The translations under genes and the position numbers were made by a program. The notes below the pieces were generated by a model. That model saw only the letters and a list, made by a program, of their open reading frames with translations. It was not told the origin of the DNA and ran no database searches. Positions 5,801 through 59,799 of a stretch of DNA of 63,681 nt are shown piece after piece. The stretch is from the NCBI GenBank assembly GCA_013115125.1, contig JABANN010000134.1, positions 1 to 63,681 on the forward strand, read 5' to 3'. The DNA is from Perkinsus olseni (Eukaryota). Every line of letters begins with the position of its first letter. The first letter of the stretch is position 1.

Positions 5801-6328
5801 CCTTTGTCCTGGGCGAGAAGCCCACTTGCATGAAAACCAGTCAATGCTACATCAACACTGCGTTGAGTCTGTTAGTTCCACCGTATCTGTGCAACAAGCC
5901 CTAACTACACGGAAACAATGAAGCCTGTATTGGTCCCTGCCGCAGTTCATAGGAAGAATGAAAGGTTGCCGCCGCTGATGCTCAAATGGATGGTACAAAA
6001 CCTGAGCACTCTGTGGGGGGCAGTTCCGTGCCTCTCCACTCGTTTGGGACCACTCGTTCGAGAATGTTACTCTTCAGAGCTCCCGCCCGGAATGGTGGAG
6101 CCGATTGTGCGTTCGAGACCGGCCAATTCTCGAACCAAAAGGTGGCAAGTGCCTTGTCGGACAACTCGGGCGTTCCGTCCGCAACAGTTGGAGTTACTCC
6201 TCAGTGACGCCCGCTCTCTTGCACGCAAGTACATAGCTGTCTCCTGGCGCGGGCGGAACATGTTTCTCCCTCGAGCAAATGCGTATGGTTTAACTCAGCA
6301 GCAGCCGCATTTCAGTTCTCACTCGACC

Positions 6329-8365
6329 ATGAGACTCAATAATCTCTCGCTCGCCATCTTGCTTCCGGCTGCTGTTGCCTTTGAGCCAGTACAGATCGCC
6401 AATGGTCCAATATCTGGACTTGTGGTACGGAAGAATACTACACTACAACAGCCTATCGTCCAGGATGTGGAGATCTTCTACGGCATCCGCTATGCGGAGC
6501 CTCCTGTAAAAAAACTCAGGTTTCGACCCCCTCAGCCCTACACCTCTGAAAACTGGACCTGCGCCCGCCGCATGGTCACGCCTGGAGCTTCATGTGTCCG
6601 GCTGGCCTTGAACTTCCTAGGGGATACTGGAGATATCATTGGCCAGGAAGACTGCCTCTTCCTCAATGTGCATCGGCCCTCAACTGCGGAGTGTGGTACC
6701 TCCCGACTTCCAGTCATGTTCTGGATTCATCGTGGGGGCTATGTTAATGGTCGTGGACTGTCAGACAATGGTACCGCCTTGGCGGCGACACACAACGTTA
6801 TTGTTGTCACGGTGAACTACAGGCTGGGCCACTTAGGATTCTTTGGTTCCCAGAGCTCTCTTTCACAAGAAGGCACAACTGGCAATTGGGGGACCTTGGA
6901 TACTCAGCTAGGTCTGAAGTGGGTCCAACAGAACATCGAGGCCTTTGGTGGGGATAAGAACAGAGTCATGTTGTTCGGAGAGTCTGCCGGGGCGTTTACT
7001 GTTATGTGGCACATCGCAGCCCCGGGAAGTAAAGGCCTCTTCCACCCGGCCATTATGCAATCTGGAACGACTTCGACTCCGTTGTTCTTCCAGAAAAAGA
7101 CAGACTCTTTCAGATATTACGACTGGGTAGCAACTGAACTTGCGGGCTGTCAAGATGCCGATGATCTCGATTGCCTCCGTCGAGTTGATCCAAAGAAATT
7201 GGCCATACCAGATGGAGTCCGCTTTGACTCGGCTCGTGCGCCAAACTGGGCATCGACGTTGTTCCCCAACTTGCCTGTGGGTCCTACTGTCGACGGAGTA
7301 ACACTACCCGACGTCCCCCTTCGTGTGGTTGAGAAGGGTAATCATAATGACGTCCCACTTATCGTGGGGTTCAACAGGGGCGAAGGCTCGCTGTTCGGCT
7401 TTCTTCTCCCGAGAGTGGTCCCGCGTCTCCGAATGCCTCTAAGAGAGCCGGGGCTTCGCAGAACCCTGGACTACTTCTTGCAGAACGAGACCGCTGCCAA
7501 GGAAATCGAAAAGTTCTATCCCCGGGAGCAATACTCCTCTCTCTACGGCCCCGAAAATGGTCCTTTTGAACAGGCTTTCTCCTTCATGAGAGACTCTCTT
7601 TTTCACTGCCCCGGTAGACAACTCGCCGAAGCTCTGGTGAAGAACGGCAAGTCCTCGACCTGGATGTATTCTTTCGACAAACCAGATCTCTTCGGGCAGC
7701 TTGGAAGCTTTCGGCTTGGAATACTGTCTCCTGCTTACGGGAATTCAACTGTGGCCCAGCTGAGCAACTTCCACTCAGCCGAACTCCCATTCGTGTTCAA
7801 GGACTTCGGCGAAAACCCGGCTAACTTCTCTAGACCTTCGCTATCGTTAATCACTAAGTCATATACGGCTCGTCCTCCTCGCCAGCCCCGTGACGCCTTT
7901 CATCGCATTAGCGATGCCTTCTCCTGCATGTGGACTCATATGGCCTCCCATGGAAGTCCGACGGATCCACAGCAACACTGCCCGGGGTTACCTGATGGAG
8001 CTATCCCTCCGTGGTTGCCTTACAACTCAAGCCTCGATGGCTGCCAGGCTCATGGTGTCTACATGCACATCGGCGATCAGTTAAGCATGCAGGCTTGGAG
8101 ATCCAACAACATCTACCCAGATAATGAGATGCCGTCTATTGAACAATGTCAGTTATGGAATGAGCACTCGTTTGAGTTCCGCAACCTTCGTGCCGATCTA
8201 CCAGGAGTAACGACAGCATCTCCAACTACGCCTAGTCCCGCTCCGAACGCACCGACTCTTGCTCCTATCACGCCGACTCCTGCTCCTACCAGTCCTCTAT
8301 CTTCTGCCCACCGCAGAGGAGGATTTCTCCTGGTATTGTTCGGAATCCTGGCGCTGGTGTTATGA
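6329..8365 (+). CDS. Type-B carboxylesterase/cholinesterase-family enzyme; secreted, probably GPI-anchored; intronless (678 aa)
   Basis: Signal peptide MRLNNLSLAILLPAAVA. Family motifs EDCLFLN, WIHRGGY, NYRLG, nucleophile GESAG, acid GFNRGEG and His NFHSAEL. Ends in a Thr/Pro stalk and hydrophobic tail SSAHRRGGFLLVLFGILALVL. ATG 6329 was chosen because the paralog starts at the equivalent position. Confidence 0.92.
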   Translation: MRLNNLSLAILLPAAVAFEPVQIANGPISGLVVRKNTTLQQPIVQDVEIFYGIRYAEPPVKKLRFRPPQPYTSENWTCARRMVTPGASCVRLALNFLGDTGDIIGQEDCLFLNVHRPSTAECGTSRLPVMFWIHRGGYVNGRGLSDNGTALAATHNVIVVTVNYRLGHLGFFGSQSSLSQEGTTGNWGTLDTQLGLKWVQQNIEAFGGDKNRVMLFGESAGAFTVMWHIAAPGSKGLFHPAIMQSGTTSTPLFFQKKTDSFRYYDWVATELAGCQDADDLDCLRRVDPKKLAIPDGVRFDSARAPNWASTLFPNLPVGPTVDGVTLPDVPLRVVEKGNHNDVPLIVGFNRGEGSLFGFLLPRVVPRLRMPLREPGLRRTLDYFLQNETAAKEIEKFYPREQYSSLYGPENGPFEQAFSFMRDSLFHCPGRQLAEALVKNGKSSTWMYSFDKPDLFGQLGSFRLGILSPAYGNSTVAQLSNFHSAELPFVFKDFGENPANFSRPSLSLITKSYTARPPRQPRDAFHRISDAFSCMWTHMASHGSPTDPQQHCPGLPDGAIPPWLPYNSSLDGCQAHGVYMHIGDQLSMQAWRSNNIYPDNEMPSIEQCQLWNEHSFEFRNLRADLPGVTTASPTTPSPAPNAPTLAPITPTPAPTSPLSSAHRRGGFLLVLFGILALVL

Positions 8366-10483: not shown

Positions 10484-12522
10484 ATGGGACTCAATCACCT
10501 TTCACTCGCCATCTTGCTGCCGGCTGCTGTTGCCTTTCAGCCGGTACAGATCGCCAACGGCCCGATATCTGGACTTGTGGTACAGAAAGATACTACACTA
10601 CAACAGCCTATCGAGTGAGATGTAGAGGTCTTCTTCGGAATCCGCTACGCTCAACCTCCCGTCGGGGAACTCAGGTTCCGACCACCTCAGCCCTACACCT
10701 CTGAGAGTTGGACCTCCACCCGTCCCATGGTTACGCCTGGAACTTCATGTGTCCGAGTGGTCGCGAACTTTCTAGGAGACACCGGTGAAATAGAAGGACA
10801 GGAAGACTGTCTCTTTCTCAATGTGTACAGGCCCTCAACTGCGGAGTGTGGTACCTCCCGACTTCCAGTCATGTTCTGGATTCATCGTGGGGGCTATGTT
10901 AATGGTCGTGGACTGTCAGACAATGGTACCGCCTTGGCGGCGACACACAACGTTATTGTTGTCACGGTGAACTACAGGCTGGGCCACTTACGATTCTTTG
11001 GTTCCCAGAGCTCTCTTTCACAAGAAGGCACAACTGGCAATTGGGGGACCTTGGATACTCAGCTAGGTCTGAAGTGGGTCCAACAGAACATCGAGGCCTT
11101 TGGTGGGGATAAGAACAGAGTCATGTTGTTCGGAGAGTCTGCCGGGGCGTTTACTGTTATGTGGCACACATAATGACACCGGGAAGTAAAGGCCTCTTCC
11201 ACTCGGCCATTATGCAATCTGGAACGACTTCGACTCCGTTGTTCTTCCAGAAAAAGACAGACTCTTTCAGATATTACGACTGGGTAGCAACTGAACTTGC
11301 GGGCTGTCAAGATGCCGATGATCTCGATTGCCTCCGTCGAGTTGATCCAAAGAAATTGGCCATACCAGATGGAGTCCGCTTTGACTCGGCTCGTGCGCCA
11401 AACTGGGCATCGACGTTGTTCCCCAACTTGCCTGTGGGTCCTACTGTCGACGGAGTAACACTACCCGACGTCCCCCTTCGTGTGGTTGAGAAGGGTAATC
11501 ATAATGACGTCCCACTTATCGTGGGGTTCAACAGGGGCGAAGGCTCGCTGTTCGGCTTTCTTCTCCCGAAAGTGGTTCCGGGTCTCCAAATGCCCCTAAC
11601 AGAGCAGGGGCTTCGCAGAACCCTAAACTACTTCCTGCAGAACGAGACCGCTGCCAAGGAAATTGAAAAGTTCTATCCTCTGGGGCAGTATTCCTCTGTC
11701 TACGGTCTTGACAACGGTCCCTTCGAACAGGCTTTCGCCTTCATGAGAGACTCCTTATTCCACTGTCCTGGCAGACAACTCGCCGAAGCTCTGGTGAACA
11801 AGGGCAAGTCTTCGACCTGGATGTATTCTTTCGACAAAGCAGATCTCTTCGGCCCGCTGGGAAGCTTTCGGCTCGGAATACTGTCCCCTGCATACGGGAA
11901 TTTAACTGTGGCCCAGCTGGGCAACTTCCACTCAGCCGAACTCCCATTCGTGTTCAAGGAATTCAGCGAAAACCCGGCTAACTTCTCTAGACCTTCGCTA
12001 TCGTTAATCACTAAGTCATATACGGCCCATCCTCCTCGCCAGCCGGGTGACGCCTTCCATCGCATTAGCGATGCCCTTTCTTGCATGTGGACTCACATGG
12101 CCTCCCACGGAAGTCCGACGGGTCCACAGCAACACTGCCCGGGGTTATCTGATGGAGGTATCCCTTCGTGGTTGCCTTACAACTCAAGCCTCGATGGCTC
12201 CCAGGCTCAGGGTGTCTACATGCACATCGGCGATGAGTTGAGCATGTGGCCTTGGAGATCCAACAACGTCTACCCCGATAATGAGATGCCGTCTATTGAA
12301 CAATGTCAGTTATGGAATGAGCACTCGTTTGAGTTCCGCAACCTCCGTGCCGATCTACCAGGAGTAACGACGGGATCTCCAGCTACGCCTAGTCCCGCCC
12401 CTACCACACCTACTCCTGCTCCCACCACGCCGACTCCTGCTTCTACCAGTCCTATATCCTCGGCCCACCACAGGGAAGGATTCCTTTTGATGTCGTTCGG
12501 AATCCTGGCGCTGCTGTTATGA
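10484..12522 (+). pseudogene. Carboxylesterase paralog with a premature stop and a frameshift
   Basis: Collinear with 6329-8365. In-frame TGA at 10616-10618 (CAG in copy 1) and a 2-nt insertion near 11166-11169 (CACACATAATG) just after GESAG. Downstream homology continues to about 12795. Confidence 0.88.
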
Positions 12523-32541: not shown

Positions 32542-34087
32542 ATGGATTTTCTCGCCGCGATGAGGTCAGTTGAAGCTATTTCGTGCTATCCGCGATGCAC
32601 CTAACCTCGTCGATATCTGTCACCGTCATCTACCTGGCCACGTTATCCCATGGCCTCACGAGAGGAGGCCCACTTCGGAAAAGGAAGAGGTCCAGCAGCA
32701 GTAGCAGCAGTGATCTCCAGCCTGAAGGTGCTATGGAGGTTGATGCTGGCAAAGCGAGTGATCGAAGGCAGACCGTTGTCATATCTAGAGGTCTTCAGGG
32801 AAGTGGCAAAAGTAGTGGGGTATTTTGTCTCGAAAGAGCGGGGTGATGTATCTTTGGTAGGCACTGCAATGCGGACGGCTGCCATGCTACTCGGCGGAGA
32901 CTGGCTCAATCAGGACGAGTTTACGACCCCCGGCGGAAACTGGAAGGCCGATAGGGCTAGGTTCTTTGACAGCATATCGAAAAGCACCAAATGCGGAAAG
33001 CCTTATGTTTTCGTCGACCGCATGAATACGCTGAAGCAGCATAGGTAACTGTCTTAGACCAGCATGGAGACCACGGTTTCGCTGATACCAGTGAAGTTCG
33101 TTGGATCCTCCCGAACGTTATCTTGATCAGGCGCGACGTTCAAGACCAGATCGAGACCTGCAATGGAGAGTCCCCCAAAATTGTATATCTGCAGTGGATG
33201 CATCCTGCCGATGAAGGCTGCAGCGATCCGGTGAAAGGAAGCCGTTACCGCGAAGTCTGCTTGACAAACCTGCGCAACAGGGCTGGGAGGCATAGGGTGA
33301 GCCTTGACCGTACTCCCGCTGGTCTTCGTGTATGTGTGCCGGGCACAGACGACAGTGGTTTCAGAGCATACCGTCGAACGCTCCCATCGAGAAAATCTTC
33401 GATGCTTCCGCTAAGAAAGTGCAAGCGGTAAAGGAAGATGAGCTTGTAGAGTATGGGGCCGAGATATCCAATGTTGATGTGACACTAGACCGTTACGGGA
33501 TGGTGAATGAGATACTGCGAGTGCTCGGCAGAGACAAGGACTTCACAGAGGAACAGATAAGTGATGCTATGCAGAAAGTAGCTGACATCGAGAAAGACAT
33601 GAAACCTGTTGCCAATGGACCCAAACCCAGAATGTTCCAACTACAGCTCAGCGAAGAATCCACCAAGAAGTTGAGGGATGCTGTAGGATTTGAAACATGG
33701 GATTACATGAGTGAGAAAGGCATAAGGTCAAATGAGAGATTCCATGTTACGCTCCTGTACAACGCCCGGCCTAATAACCCTGATGATGCTACTGCTGAAC
33801 TCGAGAAACAACTCTATCCTCTAGCTGGTGAGGCATTCTCGTTCGAGGTGTCTTCGGTTGTTTGCTCGGGTGCCAGGGTTTGTGCGGTGCCAGTGGAGTT
33901 CCACGAACGCATTCCTTGTCGTAATGAACATCCTCACATCACTCTCGGGGTAGGCCAGGGTGTCGCGCCCAGAGAGAGCAACGACATGCTATTGGGTACG
34001 GATCCTGAAAGACATCCACCTAGTCAGATCCACGAGTGGACCCTAGAACGCCTTGAGCTGGATGGAGTCGTACGGGTTATCAATTGA
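32542..34087 (+). CDS. Polynucleotide kinase-2',3'-cyclic phosphodiesterase (Trl1-type healing domains, no ligase domain)
   Basis: Spliced P-loop GLQGSGKST, WLNQDEF and VFVDRMN..KQHR. The C-terminal 2H phosphoesterase has two HxT motifs (FHVTLLY, PHITLG). Confidence 0.75.
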
Positions 34088-34903
34088 TCACCATTCACTG
34101 ATTCTGTGGCCTTGTAACTTCTCTTGTGCAACTACCGCGCATACTGACTCCTGCTTCTAGAACGTTTATGTTGCTATGTTCTCGCTGTGGCTTCTGCTTC
34201 AGTGCATGACGTAGGTTAGTTCTCACTTGCATTAACGTGATTTCCTTTTTCCATGCATGTTTTTATCCGATTTGATGTGAAGGTGTAGACTCGCCTAACG
34301 ATGTAACAAGACTCAGCTCACCCGAGTCTGTTGTTATTTACGCCTCTAGGGTTTTATTCCGTTCGACGGTTTTTACCTATCCGGTGTAGCCACATGAGAT
34401 TGTTTTGTTTTGGAGTAGGGTTCAATTCAAAACTGTTAGGATTGTCGTGTGCTTGTTATCTGGATTGTTCTTACGAATTTCAAATTCGATTGGCTTTGGC
34501 TCCTTTGGCTTTCGATCACCAAGATCCCTGTAGGAGATTCTCTTTAAGAGAATCGTATGCACGCCACAGTCGTCTGAGGCTCGTCTAGCCTGACCTCTCT
34601 TGAGCATCCAAGCGGGGGTCGAGGCATCTACACGGGTCAGAGGGACTTTCTAAGGGGTTCATTCTTCTTCCTGTGCACTATACCACTCTATCTCGTCCAT
34701 TTGCTGTCCATCCGTCACATCTCACATGTCGGATCCTTCATCATAAACGCTTTATGTATCACTTGCGTTTGGTAGAGCGCCTTTCAATCTATTCACTGTC
34801 CGCCCTAGCAGGTATCCACATCGGTCTCAGTCCTGGTGAATCCGTGTATCCCGCGAAAGTCGAAAATCTCGTAGTATCTTTGTGGATGGCTTGTTCTTGA
34901 GAG

Positions 34904-36488
34904 ATGGATTCTACTCATCCTGAACTTGCTATCGTCGAAATTATATCGCCGCCCAAGGATGAGTTCGAGGTAACCGAAGCTGGCATTAGAGCCAGGCCTT
35001 ACACCACTACGAAGATTGTGGACTGCAAGAAGCGATGGCGTGGACGTACTAGTGGGGCTGGTCTGGCACTTTCATGGCGTGGTGTTGTGTAGTCGGCCTT
35101 CTCGGAGAGACCCTGTTCGGTCCTTACTCAGGGACTCTGAACGATATCATGTCCGTTGAGTTCGCGTTGGACTCTGAGTACATCGGAAGAGCCTGCCGAG
35201 AGGGTAATTTGAAAATTCGAAGGTCAGGGAAGAACTCCGTGCCTCAACGAGCAAAATCAGGTGGCGCTTCCCACGCCAGGTCGTCTAACTATGTTCACTC
35301 GTCCTTGCGTCTATGCATGCATTAAGCGGTGAACTACCGCCGATAACCTCTATAGCTGATTTCGGTTGGTCTTCTTCTATCAGAAAGCCTGCTCAAGAAT
35401 GGAGATAGTCTCGTACACACGTGGAGGGTGGAGGAACCTCGGATCGACTTTGCTTGCGGAGAGACAGGGGTACTTTTCATTCGGGACGACCCCATACAAG
35501 GGATAATAGCGGTACTACCACGAAGTCACTGTATTCCGGGATCTGCTGATTCCTCTACTTTGAAGGTACACAAGCCGGCCGGGCTCCCGACCCACTCCGG
35601 CGGCAAGTACATGAGGACCTCACTCGTACATATCTTGGCGCGGTCGCTACACATACCCACAATCCGGCCTATAAATAGACTGGATAGGGAAACCAGTGGC
35701 GTGGTTCTACTAGCTAAGGATGCTGCTGTGCACGAGAGGCTCAAAGATAGATCTCTACTCGGTAAAGTGTATGTGGCCGATATTGGAGAAAAGGCCTCCC
35801 AGGTAGAAGGGGAGGGGGAGTTATCGAACATGTGCCGCAACGTAGTAAATCGTAGTAACATCCGTCTATCGGTCCAATTCGAAGCCGAAAATCGCTCCCA
35901 GGTCAGTGTTGGCAGGTGCCATCTTCATGCCGCGCTCCGATAGTGGTGGATCGGCACGTGCCGAACCAACCTCTCATGTCGCGTGTAGTGGAGGAATCTG
36001 CCGAGTAAGTGCAAGAGGAGCGGCCGCACTCTCCCGTGACAGGAGGCGGTGATGGGCGTCTCGATATCCAGGTCAACTCCGTGTACCACACTCTTCCGTG
36101 ATCTCGGTGGCGGAATCGTTGCATGCAGGCCAGTGACTGGAAAAACCCATCAAATTCGGGTAGTGCTGAGGTCCTCATATCCCGTTATTATGCGTTGTGT
36201 GTTAGGTACATCTATCCCACATGGGCTCCCCTATCCAAGGCGACACTCTGTATGGCGGTGCAGGGACTCCCGAGGGGAGGCTCAGACTTCATGCGCATTG
36301 CTATCGGGTGAAGGATCCCGATCAAGGTATACGTCACTTTTCTACCAATATCAATGCGCACTTCTGAATTCATTCTTTCAGGGACCTCGGTGGACTTCAT
36401 CTCGCCCATGCTACCCATGTGGTGTACTCCTGCTGAGGGATGGCAGGGTAAGTTAGAAGCCCTCCTCACTGCAAGTACACCCGGCTGA
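34904..36488 (+). CDS. RluA-family RNA pseudouridine synthase
   Basis: HKPAGLPTH, catalytic INRLDRETSGV, KVYVA, PVTGKTHQIR|VHLSHMGSPIQGDTLYG, LRLHA. The 3' end is approximate. Confidence 0.88.
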
Positions 36489-54395: not shown

Positions 54396-55964
54396 ATGCT
54401 CCGTACCGACTTGACCCAGCTGTTGGGCATAGAGCACCCCATCATGTGCGCGGGTATGGGCTTCTTCGTCACTGGACCCGACCTGGCCGCCGCGGTAAGT
54501 GCTATTAAGTACACTCCTCTCAGGCGTCATCGTTCAGGTCTCTAATGCGGGTGGGATTGGTACCATCGGCGCGGTAGGGTTGAACCCTGCCGGTCTGCGG
54601 CAGGTCATAAGGGAGTTGAAGGCCAAGCTCAGCCCGGGCAAACCCTACGGGGTAGTAATTGCTTCTTACCAGACGCTTCTCGGATGGGAGACCCTGTGTG
54701 ATGATGGTCATCTCGCGCTCTGGTCAGGTTGATTTGTTACTGCCAGCGGACCCGCGGGAGAATCCCAATGCTAGGAAGACCAACAAGGACTACAGCGGAG
54801 GGCAGTTGGAAGCCTTGGTTCAGGTAACTAGGTGGTGCTCATTGCCATGCCCATGGTGATTTGGTCAGGTTATGGTAGATGAGAAGGTTCCACTTTTCGT
54901 GTGCGCCGTCGGAGTGCCTCCACGTTGGGTGTCTGATAAACTCCATCAAAGTGGAACCGTCATCATGAACATGATCGGCCATCCTTCTCACGTTGCCAAG
55001 GCCATCAAGGCTGGATGCGACATCATCTGTGCGCAGGGCACGGAGGCTGGTAACAATAGTATTGCCGTTGGGGAGTCCTCACCCTATCATACAGGTGGCC
55101 ATACTGGAGACATCGCTACTACTGTCCTAGTGCCGATGGCAGTCGATTCGTGCAAGGGCCATAAGAATCACTTTGGCTCTGATGTAGGGGGCCTCTCTTC
55201 CTTTCCTACCCGCTCTACGCTCATGGCAGGTCCTGGTAGTGGCCGCGGGAGGCATTAGAGATGGCCGAGGAGTGGCTGCTGCTCTGGCCTTGGGAGCCAG
55301 CGGCGTTTGGATGGGCACCCGCTTCCTGATGACGCCCGAATCTAATGTTGAACCTCGGGCGAAAGAGGTGAGGATGGAATCTTTCGTCCGGGACGCTTGG
55401 AATATGGATGGTATCAGATTCTGTTGAAGGCGGACTTCAAGACGGCCACCATGCGTACCACCGCTTACACCGGGAGGCCTTGTAGAGTGATCAAGAACGA
55501 GTTCGTCAAACGTTGGGAGTCCCAGCCCGGTGCTCGGGATAAGCTGCTACAATCCGGCGTCATACCGCTGGCTAAGGACCTTATGGATGACAAGGTAGGC
55601 TGGGTTCTGGTCGACGCCACGGTGCTCGACTATCTGCTCAGCATGAGTAGTAGTCCTCCCTGTCACACAGGTCAAACCAACAGCCTTCTATGGTCTCATG
55701 GGTGATGGAACTGGCGCACCGCTCCGCCGTAAGGATGATCCGAAGCTCAATGAGATAGTTGATCCAAAGAACTCGGCCTTGCTGGCTGGCCAGTCTGTCA
55801 TGGCCATCGACGCGTTGAAGTGAGCCACCTTGAGTGGTAGAGCAGGTCCTGGATGTCTCTGTGTCAGGCCGGCGGGTGACCTCCTTCACGAAATCGTTGC
55901 CGAGACCGACAGGGTCCTTCGTCAAGTCAACTCAGTGAGGGTCGCGGGGGTGGCTAAAATGTAA
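54396..55964 (+). CDS. Nitronate monooxygenase / 2-nitropropane dioxygenase-family flavoenzyme with C-terminal PTS1
   Basis: LTQLLGIEHPIMCAGM, LAAA|VSNAGGIG, AQGTEAG|GHTG, AAGGIRDGRGVAAALALGASGVWMGTRF, LAGQS; ends GVAKM*. Confidence 0.9.
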
Positions 55965-56150
55965 CAGCCCGAGCGAGCCCCAATTATTGCGTCAAGTTTT
56001 TGCTAGTTTTCATGATAGAAGTATGATCGCTTTTTCTATGAACACGGGCATTGATGTTCCGAGTTGAGCGGGGTAGTGATGGGAAACTCGTCATCATCAG
56101 TTTGGTTATCTTCCACCCATTTCACACCACTCGACTAGTCCAGCGGCAGT

Positions 56151-57656
56151 ATGAGTACTCTAGACCGGATCAATGAGATCGAGCAGGAGATGGCTCGTAC
56201 TCAGAAGAATAAGGCCACCAACGCCCATCTTGGTCGATTAAAGGCCAAGCTGGCCAAGCTGAAGACGGAGGTAAACTCGACCATCGGGATACAACTTAGT
56301 CGCATGCTATCGCCATTCAGCTGGTCAGCGGCTCCAAGAGCGGCGGTGGTGGTGGCGGTGGCGAAGGGTTCGACGTCAAGGCCACAGGCAATGCCCGAGT
56401 GGGGCTTATCGGATTCCCATCAGTGGGGAAATCTACGTTGTTAAATAAGGTACTTAATACAGGGGTATGGGTTGGGTGCGGTGATGCTCCGTCCTCTCGC
56501 AGTTGACTGGTACCTTCTCGGAAACAGCAGCATACGAGTTCACAACTCTTACTTGCGTGCCTGGAGTATACACTTACAAGGGAGCCAAGGTCCAGGTGTT
56601 GGATCTGCCTGGTAGGTGGAGGGGAGTGCCCGAGAGAGGCTGTTTGAGGGAGTATCTTTAGGTATCATTGAGGGTGCTAAGGACGGTAAAGGTAGAGGTA
56701 AACAGGTTATTAGTGTGGCCATGACCTGCAGTCTGATCCTCATCTGTCTCGACGTTACCAAGCCCCTCACACAAAAGCGGAAAATCGAGCATGAGCTTGA
56801 GGGCTTTGGCATGAGGCTCAACAAGAAGGAACCCAATATTATCATCACCAAGTCTGATAAGGGTGGTATCAACATCACCGTCGCCCCTGGGTATCGGTTG
56901 ATCGGCATGGACGAGGAGACGGTGGTGACCATCTGCAAGGAGTTCCGGATCACCAATGCTTCTATCGTGTTCCGATGCAATGCTAGCAGTGATGATCTCA
57001 TCGATGTTATTGAAGGTAATGATAGACCGACGCCCGCGGTATGAGAATGCTCACCTCTCGTTCAGGCGGCCGGAAGTACGTCCCTTGCCTGTATGTGATG
57101 AACAAGATTGATTCCATCACCATCGAGGAGTTAGACGTTATCTGTAAATGCCCTCATTACGTGCCCATCTCAGCTGATCTTGGATGGAACATAGACGGTC
57201 TTAAGGATAAGATGTGGGATTACATGGACCTTATTCGGGTAAGTATGACAACTGGCGGGGGACTCGGTCATGAGATTACGGCCCAGTCACCAACGAGAAT
57301 ACCCTGCGAACGACAGCGCCGCTTCTTAGGTGTACACGAAGCCTAAGGGGCAAGTACCTGATTACTCCGAACCAGTCATTCTGCCTCGAGAGAAGAGTAC
57401 TATGGAGGACTTCTGCCTCAAGCTGCATAAGGTACGTTACACAGCAGTCCTCATCCTCTAGCGCACCTCCGTCTTTCTCAGAGTATCCTTGATGAGTTCA
57501 AATATGCGTTGGTCTGGGGTATGTCAGTGAAGCACAATCCTCAGCGAGTTGGAAAGGACCATGTACTGCTCCCTTTCCCGAGCAGCAGCTCGTCACCACG
57601 TCTCGTAGGTACTGGTGGATGAAGATGTTGTACAGATCGTGAAGACCACGGGTTAG
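56151..57656 (+). CDS. DRG1: Developmentally regulated GTP-binding protein 1 (Rbg1)
   Basis: [52 protein letters not shown] (DRG1-type rather than DRG2), NKID and TGS domain DEDVVQIVK. Confidence 0.95.
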
Positions 57657-57813
57657 AGAAGGATGATGTTACATTTTCCTCCCTTTCGCTGCTTATTCAC
57701 CAATAGTCTCCGACTTGCGATTCCTGTTGTATTAGAGGGGCTCGGTTAAGTGTCGACGGTTTTGTCAGTATTGTCATCACTTTAGCGTTTGCTACTACTA
57801 CGTCCGATACGCC

Positions 57814-59321
57814 ATGGCCCCCAAGGGTGGTAAACAAGATCAAGGGGCAGAGAAGGCAAAGATGAAGGCACGAGAGAGAGTCGCTGAGGATAAGACTTTC
57901 GGCCTCAAGAACAAGAACAAGTCTCACAAGGTCCAGAGGTACGCTAGCACGGCTGAGAGGATTTGGCGAACTTATATCATTCTGAGCATACGTCCTCAGG
58001 TATGTACAGGAAGTTCAGGCAGCCGCGAAGGCAAAGCCTGGTCAGCGGGGACCTCAGAAGAACGAGGTAATGGAAAGGTCGTGGGTTCAATCCGCGGTGG
58101 CATTGTTATTAATTGTACAGTTCGAAAAGCGGGAAGAAAAGAAGAAGGAGGAGCAACGGAAGTTCTTGCTACAGTCTATCTTCTCCGGTGTGCAATTAGA
58201 GACTAAGAAGGATAAGAAGAAGGCTGCCAAGCAGAAGAAGAAGGAAGAGGTTGGACGGTTTCCCGACCGGTTTGTGTGTTGACGGTGAGACTTTTAGGAG
58301 GAGAAGTACGGCAAGATCGATCTCTATTCTGATAACCGAGACAAGAAGGGAGAATCTGACGAGGAAAAGAAGGAGGATACTATGGACCACTGGGACCAGG
58401 CCAAGCTGGAACAAGTTATTAAAACTAAGCATAACGCTACTAACACGAACAAGCCTACTGAGATTATCTGTAAATACTTCCTTGACGCTGTGGAGAAGGG
58501 TGTCTACGGATGGGTAGGTTACCGAAAGCGGCAAGGGTCTGTCTACATTGTGGGCTGATCAGTTCTGGGCGTGCCCCAATGGCGGTGATAAGTGCAAGTA
58601 TCGGCACGCTCTGCCTGCTGGATACGTGTTGAAGAAGAGGAAGACGGAAGATGATGATGACGATTACGACAACGGGCCGTCAATCGATGAGATCATCGAG
58701 CAGGAACGACAAGCCTTACCGGCTGGAGGTAGAAAGAGAACATACCTAATGCACGCCCTCAACTCGGGGCAACTTCACGATGAACCCGACACTAGACTCG
58801 CAAACCAGGAATTTGCGCGATCTGTACTGGTTAGCTCGGACGAGTGGAGTTCTCTGCGTCCAAGGGCTTCTGGTCAGGAACTCCCGTCACACTCGAGACG
58901 TTCACAGCGTGGAAGAAGAAGAAGCAAGAGGAGAGGGAGGCAGAAGAGGAACGGAAGAAGCAGGAGCGCATCGCCCAGGCTAAGAAGGAGAAGCGGAGTG
59001 TCATGTCCGGAAGGTAAGCATGGCATTCACCAGTGCAACCCATTGGTGCTGAGTTCGGAACCAGCCACGTTGGTATCATCGTTGCTCAGGGATCTTTTCA
59101 CCTTCGATCCGACCTTGTTCGCCGATGACGAGGATGCTAGCTCGGATTCTTCTGATGAGGAGGAGTCTGACGAGGAGGACAACGAAGTTGATGTACTACA
59201 CGGTGATGGGAGTGGTTAATGGAGGGAATGTTCTCCTGTTCAGACTCCCCAGCACGTCCTCCAGAGCACAGATGCCGCTGCCTTGTTCTCGAAGGATGAG
59301 GAACTGCCTGATGATGATTAA
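57814..59321 (+). CDS. ZC3H15: DRG family regulatory protein 1 (ZC3H15/Tma46)
   Basis: [98 protein letters not shown]. Confidence 0.92.
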
Positions 59322-59799
59322 CTCATCAGCGGGGCCTAACTATCGCCGCTTATTGTACGATTCGGCAAGTTCATCTTCCTTATCAAATCTACTTGCAAGC
59401 TTTTGGGTTGCCAAGTCACCGCATTCCTCAGTAGCATGAATACCATGCCGATAAATACGATAATAAACACCCTCCTCCTGAGCAAAGAATGTATCGACCC
59501 TGAACACTATCGAACCGCCAAAGCTTTGCTCCCATCAAACTCGGTCATGACGACAGGCAAGAGTTGCCCTCGGCCGTGGCGCTGAGTTAGTAAGCGAATA
59601 ACCTAACTATTGTGGCCATTCCTGGACGACGTCCCATCTCTATCACAACCTTCACGACGGATTCGTATCTGCTAAAAGTATCACTGCCTATCACTCGGAA
59701 CGTCTCTTATGTGGAGATCTCCAGCGTGGTAGCCGGAGGGAACCTAGCTGACGTAGCTGAACCTGGTGTGGAGTGGGGAGCCCGACGCGTTCGTTACCC

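What the first reader, a model, noticed from the sequence alone, without database searches (positions are those of the whole stretch)
56151..59321. DRG1 GTPase lies directly upstream of its binding partner DFRP1/ZC3H15
Seen: the DRG1 stop (57656) and ZC3H15 start (57814) are 157 bp apart on the same strand. Established: DRG1/Rbg1 and DFRP1/Tma46 form a ribosome-associated heterodimer, DFRP1 stabilises DRG1, and the pairing is specific (DRG2 pairs with DFRP2/Gir2). The two are non-homologous, so tandem duplication cannot explain the adjacency. Inference: an operon-like functional pair, possibly co-transcribed and resolved by spliced-leader trans-splicing.
Basis: partly seen in the sequence, partly recalled or inferred. 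Interest (0 to 1): 0.8.

Follow-up and report, generated by a model that had tools for sequence, protein, structure and literature searches.

The report
DRG1 and DFRP1 neighbours in Perkinsus
In the clam parasite Perkinsus olseni, the genes for a ribosome-bound GTPase (DRG1) and its stabilising partner (DFRP1/Tma46) lie head to tail 157 bases apart and each message gets the parasite's spliced leader, but nothing yet shows that this neighbourhood is more than a local accident in a tightly packed genome.

Summary
An 8-exon DRG1/Rbg1 gene (56151-57656) is followed on the same strand, 157 nt later, by an 8-exon DFRP1/Tma46 gene (57814-59321). Spliced RNA contigs from 4 of 4 runs confirm all 14 introns. 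The organism is Perkinsus olseni.

The trans-splicing guess is partly borne out. Both mRNAs carry 5' letters identical to the end of the published Perkinsus leader PmaSL1, joined at AG 56099-56100 and AG 57784-57785.

The "operon-like functional pair" reading is not established:
- The unrelated upstream gene (nitronate monooxygenase) sits 186 nt before DRG1 on the same strand, so the tight spacing is local habit.
- 0 of 80 environmental eukaryotic Tma46 loci hold a DRG gene. Of these, 19 are at least 5 kb long.
- In Toxoplasma the two genes appear to lie on different chromosomes.
- No fused DRG-DFRP protein turned up.

Synteny in P. marinus and P. chesapeaki, and a dicistronic precursor, could not be tested.

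Most likely this is a lineage-specific juxtaposition in a compact, trans-spliced gene array. A selected co-expression unit remains possible (about 0.25). Interest is modest.

The parts
54396..55964 (+). Upstream, functionally unrelated gene (nitronate monooxygenase, 379 aa, public protein P0323). Its stop lies 186 nt before the DRG1 ATG and 136 nt before the DRG1 leader acceptor.
   Evidence: tblastn of P0323 on the window covers 54396-55961. Pfam NMO on its exons. P0323 is named as a Perkinsus olseni protein.
56099..56100 (+). AG acceptor for spliced-leader addition to DRG1 mRNA. The mature 5'UTR is 56101-56150 (50 nt).
   Evidence: Contigs of runs X1 and X2 align from 56099 and carry the loose 5' letters TCTTGGCTCA / CTTGGCTCA. 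X3 and X6 contigs start at 56100 (tables 7, 8). Leader sequence taken from papers.
56151..57656 (+). DRG1/Rbg1 GTPase gene, 371 aa. Eight exons: 56151-56270, 56321-56449, 56503-56611, 56662-57015, 57066-57238, 57330-57431, 57482-57562, 57609-57656.
   Evidence: Model. All 7 introns are skipped by RNA contigs in 4 of 4 runs. Identical to P0056. Pfam MMR_HSR1, MMR_HSR1_Xtn, TGS. Rbg1 488 bits against Rbg2 374 bits.
57657..57813 (+). 157-nt spacer. It holds the DRG1 3'UTR (contig ends imply about 57708-57715, a weak inference), a short stretch of outron, the AG acceptor and the 28-nt Tma46 5'UTR.
   Evidence: Sequence. Contig lengths and start points (table 8). X1 and X3 contigs extend 8 and 4 nt upstream of the acceptor with genomic letters, so they are not trans-spliced there.
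57784..57785 (+). AG acceptor for spliced-leader addition to Tma46/DFRP1 mRNA. The mature 5'UTR is 57786-57813 (28 nt). The acceptor lies only 129 nt after the DRG1 stop.
   Evidence: The X6 contig aligns from 57784 with loose 5' letters TTGGCTCA. The X2 contig starts at 57784 (tables 7, 8).
57814..59321 (+). DFRP1/Tma46/ZC3H15 gene, 339 aa. Eight exons: 57814-57938, 58000-58066, 58121-58249, 58298-58513, 58563-58728, 58878-59013, 59090-59192, 59244-59321.
   Evidence: Model. All 7 introns are skipped by RNA contigs in 4 of 4 runs. Pfam DFRP_C on exon 6. 7rr5_T (Tma46) at E 2e-12 on exon 4. 92% identity to Perkinsus orthologues P0001 and P0002.
58298..58728 (+). Exons 4-5 encode the conserved DTMD.WD..KL block and the single retained (second, atypical) zinc finger, C165-C183-C190-H194. 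The first CCCH finger is absent.
   Evidence: Alignment A1. Cys/His inventory. Exon 3 (58121-58249) encodes a Lys-rich linker without Cys or His.
58878..59192 (+). Exons 6-7 encode the DFRP (DRG-binding) domain, including the invariant SGRDLF motif.
   Evidence: Pfam DFRP_C at 9.5e-08 on exon 6. Invariant columns G276, R277, F280 of A1.
59322..59386 (+). Tma46 3'UTR, as far as RNA contigs reach (about 59384-59388 in 3 of 4 runs). This is a weak inference.
   Evidence: Contig lengths, table 8.

Best explanation
These are two ordinary, separately matured genes of Perkinsus olseni: the ribosome-associated GTPase DRG1 and its cognate partner DFRP1/Tma46. They lie head to tail in a compact run of at least three co-oriented genes (nitronate monooxygenase, DRG1, Tma46).

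Shown: each mRNA is cis-spliced at 7 introns and receives the 22-nt-type Perkinsus spliced leader at an AG 50 nt (DRG1) or 28 nt (Tma46) before its ATG.

Inferred: only 129 nt separate the DRG1 stop from the Tma46 leader acceptor, so the Tma46 primary transcript probably starts inside or upstream of DRG1 (read-through, or a promoter embedded in the gene) and is freed by trans-splicing. The same geometry holds at the unrelated upstream junction. Any co-transcription would therefore be a generic property of the locus, not a device for this pair.

The partners being neighbours is most likely a lineage-specific juxtaposition. It could bring a mild benefit of correlated dosage but is not a conserved or ancestral unit.
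For: - Gene identities and models.
- Leader letters on both mRNAs match PmaSL1. Both show TTGG, which is the 22-nt type and not the 21-nt TCTGG type.
- NMO stop to DRG1 ATG is 186 nt, and stop to acceptor 136 nt. That is nearly the same as the 157 and 129 nt at the DRG1-Tma46 junction.
- Pfam-bearing frames in the window lie on both strands with several strand switches. This is not a long unidirectional array built around function.
- No DRG gene beside Tma46 elsewhere: tblastn of DRG1 hit 0 of 80 metagenome or metatranscriptome Tma46 loci. Of these, 19 are at least 5 kb long and 16 have at least 3 kb upstream. The window served as positive control.
- In L013, whose Tma46 is most like the coccidian and first-finger-less type, the upstream genes are a short-chain dehydrogenase and SRP receptor alpha on the other strand.
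- Toxoplasma gondii: the Tma46 cluster's longest contig is 7,728,230 bp, the DRG1 cluster's is 3,677,453 bp. This suggests different chromosomes, by inference.
- No DRG+DFRP fused protein: 0 of 55; 0 of 150 by position of the match; 0 of the 10 longest by Pfam.
Against: - Chance adjacency of one named pair is a priori rare (about 1e-4).
- DFRP1 is known to protect DRG1 from degradation, and the two exist mainly as a complex (review PMC8629797, passages read). Balanced expression would therefore be useful.
- Perkinsus has one published co-transcribed functional cluster of fatty-acid elongase and desaturase genes (cited in PMC2868825; the original paper was not seen).
- The negative synteny sample holds no close relative of Perkinsus (at most 48% identity). 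Many of its loci look green-algal, several pairs seem to be the same organism, and gene density there is unknown.
- Synteny in P. marinus and P. chesapeaki was not testable.
Confidence: 0.5

Rival explanations
1. A selected, operon-like co-expression unit. DRG1 and DFRP1 are transcribed as one precursor and resolved by polyadenylation plus spliced-leader addition, and the arrangement is kept because it delivers the two subunits of an obligate heterodimer in matched amounts.
For: - Same strand, 157-nt spacer, and the downstream gene is SL trans-spliced 129 nt after the upstream stop.
- The partner relation and the stabilisation of DRG1 by DFRP1 are established (PMC8629797).
- There is a precedent for co-transcribed, functionally linked genes in P. 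marinus (PMC2868825).
- The DFRP domain and the G-domain, TGS and other DRG1 domains are intact.
Against: - The same spacing occurs at the unrelated NMO-DRG1 junction.
- No conservation of the adjacency in any non-Perkinsus locus examined: 0 of 80, of which 19 are long.
- Toxoplasma apparently has the genes on different chromosomes.
- No fused forms anywhere in the samples searched.
- No precursor was observed, though the data could not have shown a rare one.
Confidence: 0.25
2. Two fully independent transcription units that are neighbours by chance. Tma46 has its own start site in or just before the spacer, and the leader is added to a short private outron.
For: - Separate mature mRNAs, each with its own leader.
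- SL addition in Perkinsus and dinoflagellates does not by itself imply polycistrons; its function is called obscure in PMC9399869 (abstract; passages).
- Non-trans-spliced contigs reach only 4-8 nt upstream of the acceptor.
Against: - At most 129 nt are available between the DRG1 stop and the acceptor. That space must also hold the DRG1 3'UTR and its end-formation signals, leaving little room for a promoter plus outron unless these overlap DRG1.
- Perkinsus promoters are undefined, and transfection vectors rely on whole flanking regions (PMC4858233).
Confidence: 0.2
3. The identities are wrong. The GTPase would be DRG2 or another Obg-like protein, or the downstream gene is not the DRG1 partner, so there is no partner pair.
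For: The first CCCH finger typical of ZC3H15/Tma46 is missing.
Against: - Rbg1 488 bits against Rbg2 374 bits.
- DFRP_C domain, the Tma46 match and the conserved N-terminal and second-finger blocks are all present.
- The same fingerless form occurs in the named Tma46 orthologues of Vitrella, Toxoplasma and Besnoitia.
Confidence: 0.02

Closest known systems
Yeast Rbg1-Tma46 / human DRG1-DFRP1 (ZC3H15) heterodimer (PDB 4A9A, 7RR5)
   Same: Same two protein families with the same domain sets: G domain with insertion and TGS in DRG1; DFRP domain, second zinc finger and N-terminal basic block in the partner.
   Different: In yeast the two genes are, as recalled and not from a call, on different chromosomes. 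Here they are adjacent. The Perkinsus partner lacks the first CCCH finger.
Perkinsus marinus co-transcribed fatty-acid elongase/desaturase cluster
   Same: Same genus. Closely spaced, same-strand, non-homologous genes of one function, reported as co-transcribed 'as an operon' (passage in PMC2868825).
   Different: Co-transcription was shown experimentally there (original paper not seen). Here it is untested, and the pair encodes binding partners, not pathway enzymes.
SL-resolved operons of nematodes and polycistrons of kinetoplastids
   Same: Head-to-tail genes, a roughly 100-nt gap between upstream 3' end and downstream leader acceptor (recalled figure), and a downstream mRNA that begins with a spliced leader.
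   Different: No precursor is shown here. There is no specialised downstream leader: both genes carry the same 22-nt-type leader. Genes in the window switch strand often.
Dinoflagellate tandem gene arrays with DinoSL
   Same: Sister lineage with a homologous leader that differs by one base in the TTTT/TCTT motif.
   Different: Those arrays repeat copies of one gene. Here the neighbours are unrelated in sequence and rich in cis-introns.

Membership tests
DRG1/Rbg1 subfamily of Obg-like GTPases | Obg-type G domain (MMR_HSR1) with the DRG-specific insertion (MMR_HSR1_Xtn) | tested here: met
   Pfam on exons 2, 4 and 5. Precomputed Pfam of P0056.
DRG1/Rbg1 subfamily of Obg-like GTPases | C-terminal TGS domain | tested here: met
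   Pfam TGS on exons 6 and 7. Match to the DRG1 TGS structure 2eki at 3.4e-38.
DRG1/Rbg1 subfamily of Obg-like GTPases | Closer to DRG1/Rbg1 than to DRG2/Rbg2 | tested here: met
   488 against 374 bits full length. 124 against 86 bits on exon 4. No tree was built.
DRG1/Rbg1 subfamily of Obg-like GTPases | GTPase activity and ribosome association | not testable with these tools
   Biochemical property.
DFRP1 / Tma46 / ZC3H15 | DFRP (DRG-binding) domain | tested here: met
   Pfam DFRP_C on exon 6. Invariant SGR..F columns. The whole window protein was scanned exon by exon only.
DFRP1 / Tma46 / ZC3H15 | Two CCCH-type zinc fingers | tested here: not met
   Only the second, atypical finger is present (C165, C183, C190, H194). 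The first is replaced by a Lys-rich linker, as in 11 of 27 aligned homologues, including Vitrella and coccidia.
DFRP1 / Tma46 / ZC3H15 | Direct, specific binding to DRG1 | not tested
   Inferred from orthology only. No complex prediction was run.
SL-resolved operon (polycistronic unit) | Same-strand genes with a short spacer | tested here: met
   157 nt, both on the + strand.
SL-resolved operon (polycistronic unit) | Downstream mRNA begins with a spliced leader | tested here: met
   X6 contig with TTGGCTCA joined at AG 57784-57785. The leader letters were seen in 1 of 4 runs.
SL-resolved operon (polycistronic unit) | A precursor RNA spanning both genes | tested here: inconclusive
   Only assembled contigs could be laid, and these cannot show or exclude a rare precursor.
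SL-resolved operon (polycistronic unit) | No independent promoter for the downstream gene | not testable with these tools
   Needs transcription-start mapping or reporter assays.
SL-resolved operon (polycistronic unit) | Gene order conserved in relatives | tested here: inconclusive
   Absent outside the genus: 0 of 80 loci; Toxoplasma inference. Within Perkinsus it could not be tested.

The most novel reading that the evidence does not exclude
Perkinsus keeps both subunits of the DRG1-DFRP1 heterodimer on one primary transcript that is cut into two mRNAs by polyadenylation and spliced-leader addition. That would be a eukaryotic operon whose purpose is matched dosage of a GTPase and the partner that shields it from degradation, and it would be only the second functional operon described in Perkinsozoa.
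Probability: 0.22. Interest if true: 0.5.

Novelty: new member of a known kind. Interest (0 to 1): 0.3.

Why it matters
If the pair were shown to be co-transcribed and kept together by selection, it would be a clean case of an operon that encodes a protein complex, not a pathway, in a eukaryote. It would also give a handle on how perkinsids, whose promoters are undefined, organise transcription. As the evidence stands, the value is more modest. The locus provides two precisely mapped spliced-leader acceptor sites, fully RNA-validated gene models for both genes, and an easy RT-PCR target (a 129-nt stop-to-acceptor interval) for asking whether closely spaced Perkinsus genes share a precursor.

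Tried and rejected
- No RNA contig covers about 57716-57775 in any of the 4 runs laid, so no contig bridges the two genes. Contigs drop rare forms, so this says nothing for or against a precursor.
- Contig depths: Tma46/DRG1 ratios are 1.46, 1.51, 1.45 and 1.80. The upstream contig/DRG1 ratios are 0.36, 0.44, 0.57 and 0.13. This is tempting as co-expression, but depth is one figure per contig, there are only four runs, and the share of parasite RNA differs between runs. I did not use it.
- The whole genome is not held.
- The cluster look-up that could have given accession numbers or locus tags of neighbouring Perkinsus genes was unavailable.
- A search with an exon of the upstream NMO gene, meant to bracket DRG1 on the P. 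marinus and P. chesapeaki contigs, returned only the P. olseni protein.
- The long metagenome records could not be searched whole.
- Earlier-findings look-ups by place, sequence and words gave nothing on this locus.
- My first impression was a filamentous fungus, from the short introns, a 'fungal tRNA ligase' Pfam name and an 829-codon open carboxylesterase frame. I dropped it after the leader letters and the Perkinsus olseni protein names.
- No SL RNA gene lies in the window: 0 matches to a 15-nt leader motif with up to 2 mismatches.
- A possible convergent minus-strand gene just after Tma46 (64-codon open frame, 59340-59534) has no Pfam match and is left unassigned.
- Literature on adjacency of the two genes: a search for DFRP1/DRG1 with synteny, operon or fusion terms was too loose to be useful. 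A DFRP1/DRG1 search plus term look-ups in the review PMC8629797 and the preprint 10.1101/2023.05.31.543024 found no mention of synteny, operon, adjacent or fused genes. Supplements were not opened.
- Complex prediction was not run.
Full report
**What is there.** The stretch 56151-59321 holds two intron-rich genes on the + strand.

The first has 8 exons and encodes a 371-aa protein. Its exons hit Pfam MMR_HSR1, MMR_HSR1_Xtn and TGS. My spliced model is identical to the public protein P0056, 'GTP-binding protein [Perkinsus olseni]'. That protein's longest contig, 63,681 bp, equals the window length. P0056 scores 488 bits against yeast Rbg1 (4a9a, 7rr5) and 374 bits against Rbg2 (7nrc), so it is the DRG1 orthologue.

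The second gene has 8 exons and encodes 339 aa. It has a DFRP_C domain and matches yeast Tma46 (7rr5_T, E 2e-12). It is about 92% identical to proteins named from P. chesapeaki (P0001) and P. marinus (P0002).

The stop TAG ends at 57656, the next ATG starts at 57814, and the spacer is 157 nt.

**RNA evidence.** Of 24 runs listed for this stretch, 20 hold half or more of its sampled words. I laid four of them, from four studies. All four are contigs, not raw reads.
- Each run gave three contigs: one spliced DRG1 mRNA, one spliced Tma46 mRNA, and one that runs in from upstream.
- All 14 predicted introns (46-149 nt, GT..AG) are skipped in 4 of 4 runs. This includes the 51-nt last intron of Tma46 (59193-59243), which settles the C-terminus and the stop at 59321.
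- In X1 and X2 the DRG1 contig aligns from 56099 and is preceded by the loose letters TCTTGGCTCA / CTTGGCTCA.
- In X6 the Tma46 contig aligns from 57784 and is preceded by TTGGCTCA.
- Both positions are genomic AG dinucleotides. Leader letters plus AG give ...TCTTGGCTCAAG, the 3' end of the 22-nt Perkinsus marinus leader PmaSL1, ACCGTAGCCATCTTGGCTCAAG. That sequence is printed in PMC9399869 and PMC3101222 (passages read).
- The TTGG in both excludes the 21-nt variant (..TCTGG..).

So both mRNAs are SL trans-spliced with the same leader type. The acceptor sites are mapped to 56099-56100 and 57784-57785, giving 5'UTRs of 50 and 28 nt. In X1 and X3 the Tma46 contig instead starts 8 and 4 nt upstream of the AG with genomic letters, which shows some RNA not yet trans-spliced.

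**Is the tight linkage special to the pair?** No.
- The public P. olseni nitronate monooxygenase P0323 maps to 54396-55961 on the same strand. Its stop is at 55964, 186 nt before the DRG1 ATG and 136 nt before the DRG1 acceptor.
- The DRG1-Tma46 junction measures 157 and 129 nt. An unrelated gene is thus joined to DRG1 in the same way that DRG1 is joined to Tma46.
- Contig lengths suggest the DRG1 mRNA ends near 57708-57715 and the upstream contig near 56020-56030. That would be some 70-80 nt before each acceptor, but contig ends are only a weak hint.
- Across the window, Pfam-bearing frames lie on both strands with several switches.

**Is the adjacency conserved?** I aligned 27 Tma46 homologues (A1) and scanned metagenome contigs with that alignment.
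- 411 stretches encode relatives, and the best 80 loci were kept.
- tblastn with the window's DRG1 hit 0 of 80 loci. The same query finds the window's gene.
- Most loci are 1-3 kb transcript-like contigs. Nineteen are at least 5 kb, and 16 of those have at least 3 kb upstream of Tma46.
- Several long loci appear to be pairs from one organism (L001/L003, L010/L013, L020/L025, L063/L064), and many look green-algal.
- The two most alveolate-like are L010 and L013. In L013 the genes upstream of Tma46 are a short-chain dehydrogenase and SRP receptor alpha on the opposite strand.
- For Toxoplasma gondii, the Tma46 cluster's longest contig is 7,728,230 bp and the DRG1 cluster's is 3,677,453 bp. This points to different chromosomes, by inference.
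- No fused DRG-DFRP protein appeared: 0 of 55 word-index hits; 0 of the 150 best of 480 HMMER hits judged by where the match lies; 0 of the 10 longest of those by Pfam.

The adjacency is therefore not ancestral or widespread.

**Mechanism.**
- Shown: two mature monocistronic mRNAs, each cis-spliced and SL-capped.
- Inferred: at most 129 nt lie between the DRG1 stop and the Tma46 acceptor, and this space must also hold the DRG1 3'UTR. The Tma46 primary transcript therefore most likely begins inside or upstream of DRG1. The locus may be transcribed through and resolved by 3'-end formation plus trans-splicing, as asserted in general terms for Perkinsus in PMC4858233 (passage) and reported for one fatty-acid gene cluster in P. 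marinus (passage in PMC2868825).
- Since the NMO-DRG1 junction looks the same, this would be a generic feature of the locus.

That DFRP1 stabilises DRG1, and that the pairing is specific, is established (review PMC8629797, passages). It makes matched dosage a plausible benefit. But plausibility is all there is.

**Chance.** For one named pair, adjacency by chance is about 2/N, roughly 1e-4 for a genome of order 10^4 genes (recalled, not from a call). The pair, however, was noticed after the fact in a scan of very many windows, where any textbook binding pair would have been flagged. Some such coincidences are expected. I therefore put a selected operon-like unit at about 0.25, generic compact-array neighbours (possibly co-transcribed) at about 0.5, and fully independent units at about 0.2.

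**Comparison and novelty.** The proteins are ordinary members of the DRG1 and DFRP1 families, except that the partner lacks the first CCCH finger. It shares this trait with Vitrella, coccidian and several unnamed environmental sequences (11 of 27 rows in A1). The arrangement resembles SL-resolved operons, but the defining precursor is unproven and conservation is not met outside the genus. I found no mention of DRG1-DFRP1 gene adjacency in the papers searched. At best it is a new candidate member of a known kind. Interest is modest.

Noticed in passing
window 58121-58249 (Tma46 exon 3); alignment A1: The Perkinsus Tma46/DFRP1 lacks the first CCCH zinc finger, which is replaced by a Lys-rich linker. 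The same gap is seen in 11 of 27 aligned homologues: P. marinus, P. chesapeaki, Vitrella, Toxoplasma, Besnoitia and six unnamed environmental proteins. This suggests a loss shared across Myzozoa.
   Followed up: partly
window 59193-59243: The last Tma46 intron is 51 nt, in frame, and holds a TAA. If retained, the protein would end ...VLHGDGSG and lose the conserved acidic C-terminal LF..DE.LPDD tail. The public P. marinus model P0002 keeps an extra in-frame segment at this place, probably an unspliced intron in that annotation.
   Followed up: partly
window 54396-56150: The nitronate monooxygenase gene ends 136 nt before the DRG1 leader acceptor, the same head-to-tail geometry as DRG1-Tma46. 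This junction is a ready control for asking whether Perkinsus neighbours share precursors.
   Followed up: partly
window 56090-56100 and 57773-57785: Both leader acceptors are preceded by the same heptamer GTCATCA (gtcatcatcAG and gtcatcactttAG). This could be a shared acceptor or branch context, or chance. It was not tested against other acceptors.
   Followed up: no
window 33308-35940: Two RNA-processing genes sit next to each other on the + strand: a frame with a tRNA-ligase cyclic phosphodiesterase domain (33308-34084) and a pseudouridine synthase frame (35356-35940). This is another possible functional neighbourhood.
   Followed up: no
window 5876-8362 and 10619-12519: Two tandem carboxylesterase-family genes lie on the + strand. 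The first is an uninterrupted 829-codon frame, unusual in this intron-rich window.
   Followed up: no
proteins P0178, P0027, P0035 (not in the window): Some long Tma46 homologues carry extra domains: a C-terminal glutathione S-transferase N-domain in P0178 (700 aa), and histidine-kinase and receiver domains in two Closterium models. Whether these are real fusions or merged gene models is unknown.
   Followed up: no
window 59340-59534, minus strand: A 64-codon open frame ends 19 nt after the Tma46 stop on the opposite strand and would overlap the Tma46 3'UTR. It has no Pfam match, so it is unassigned.
   Followed up: partly
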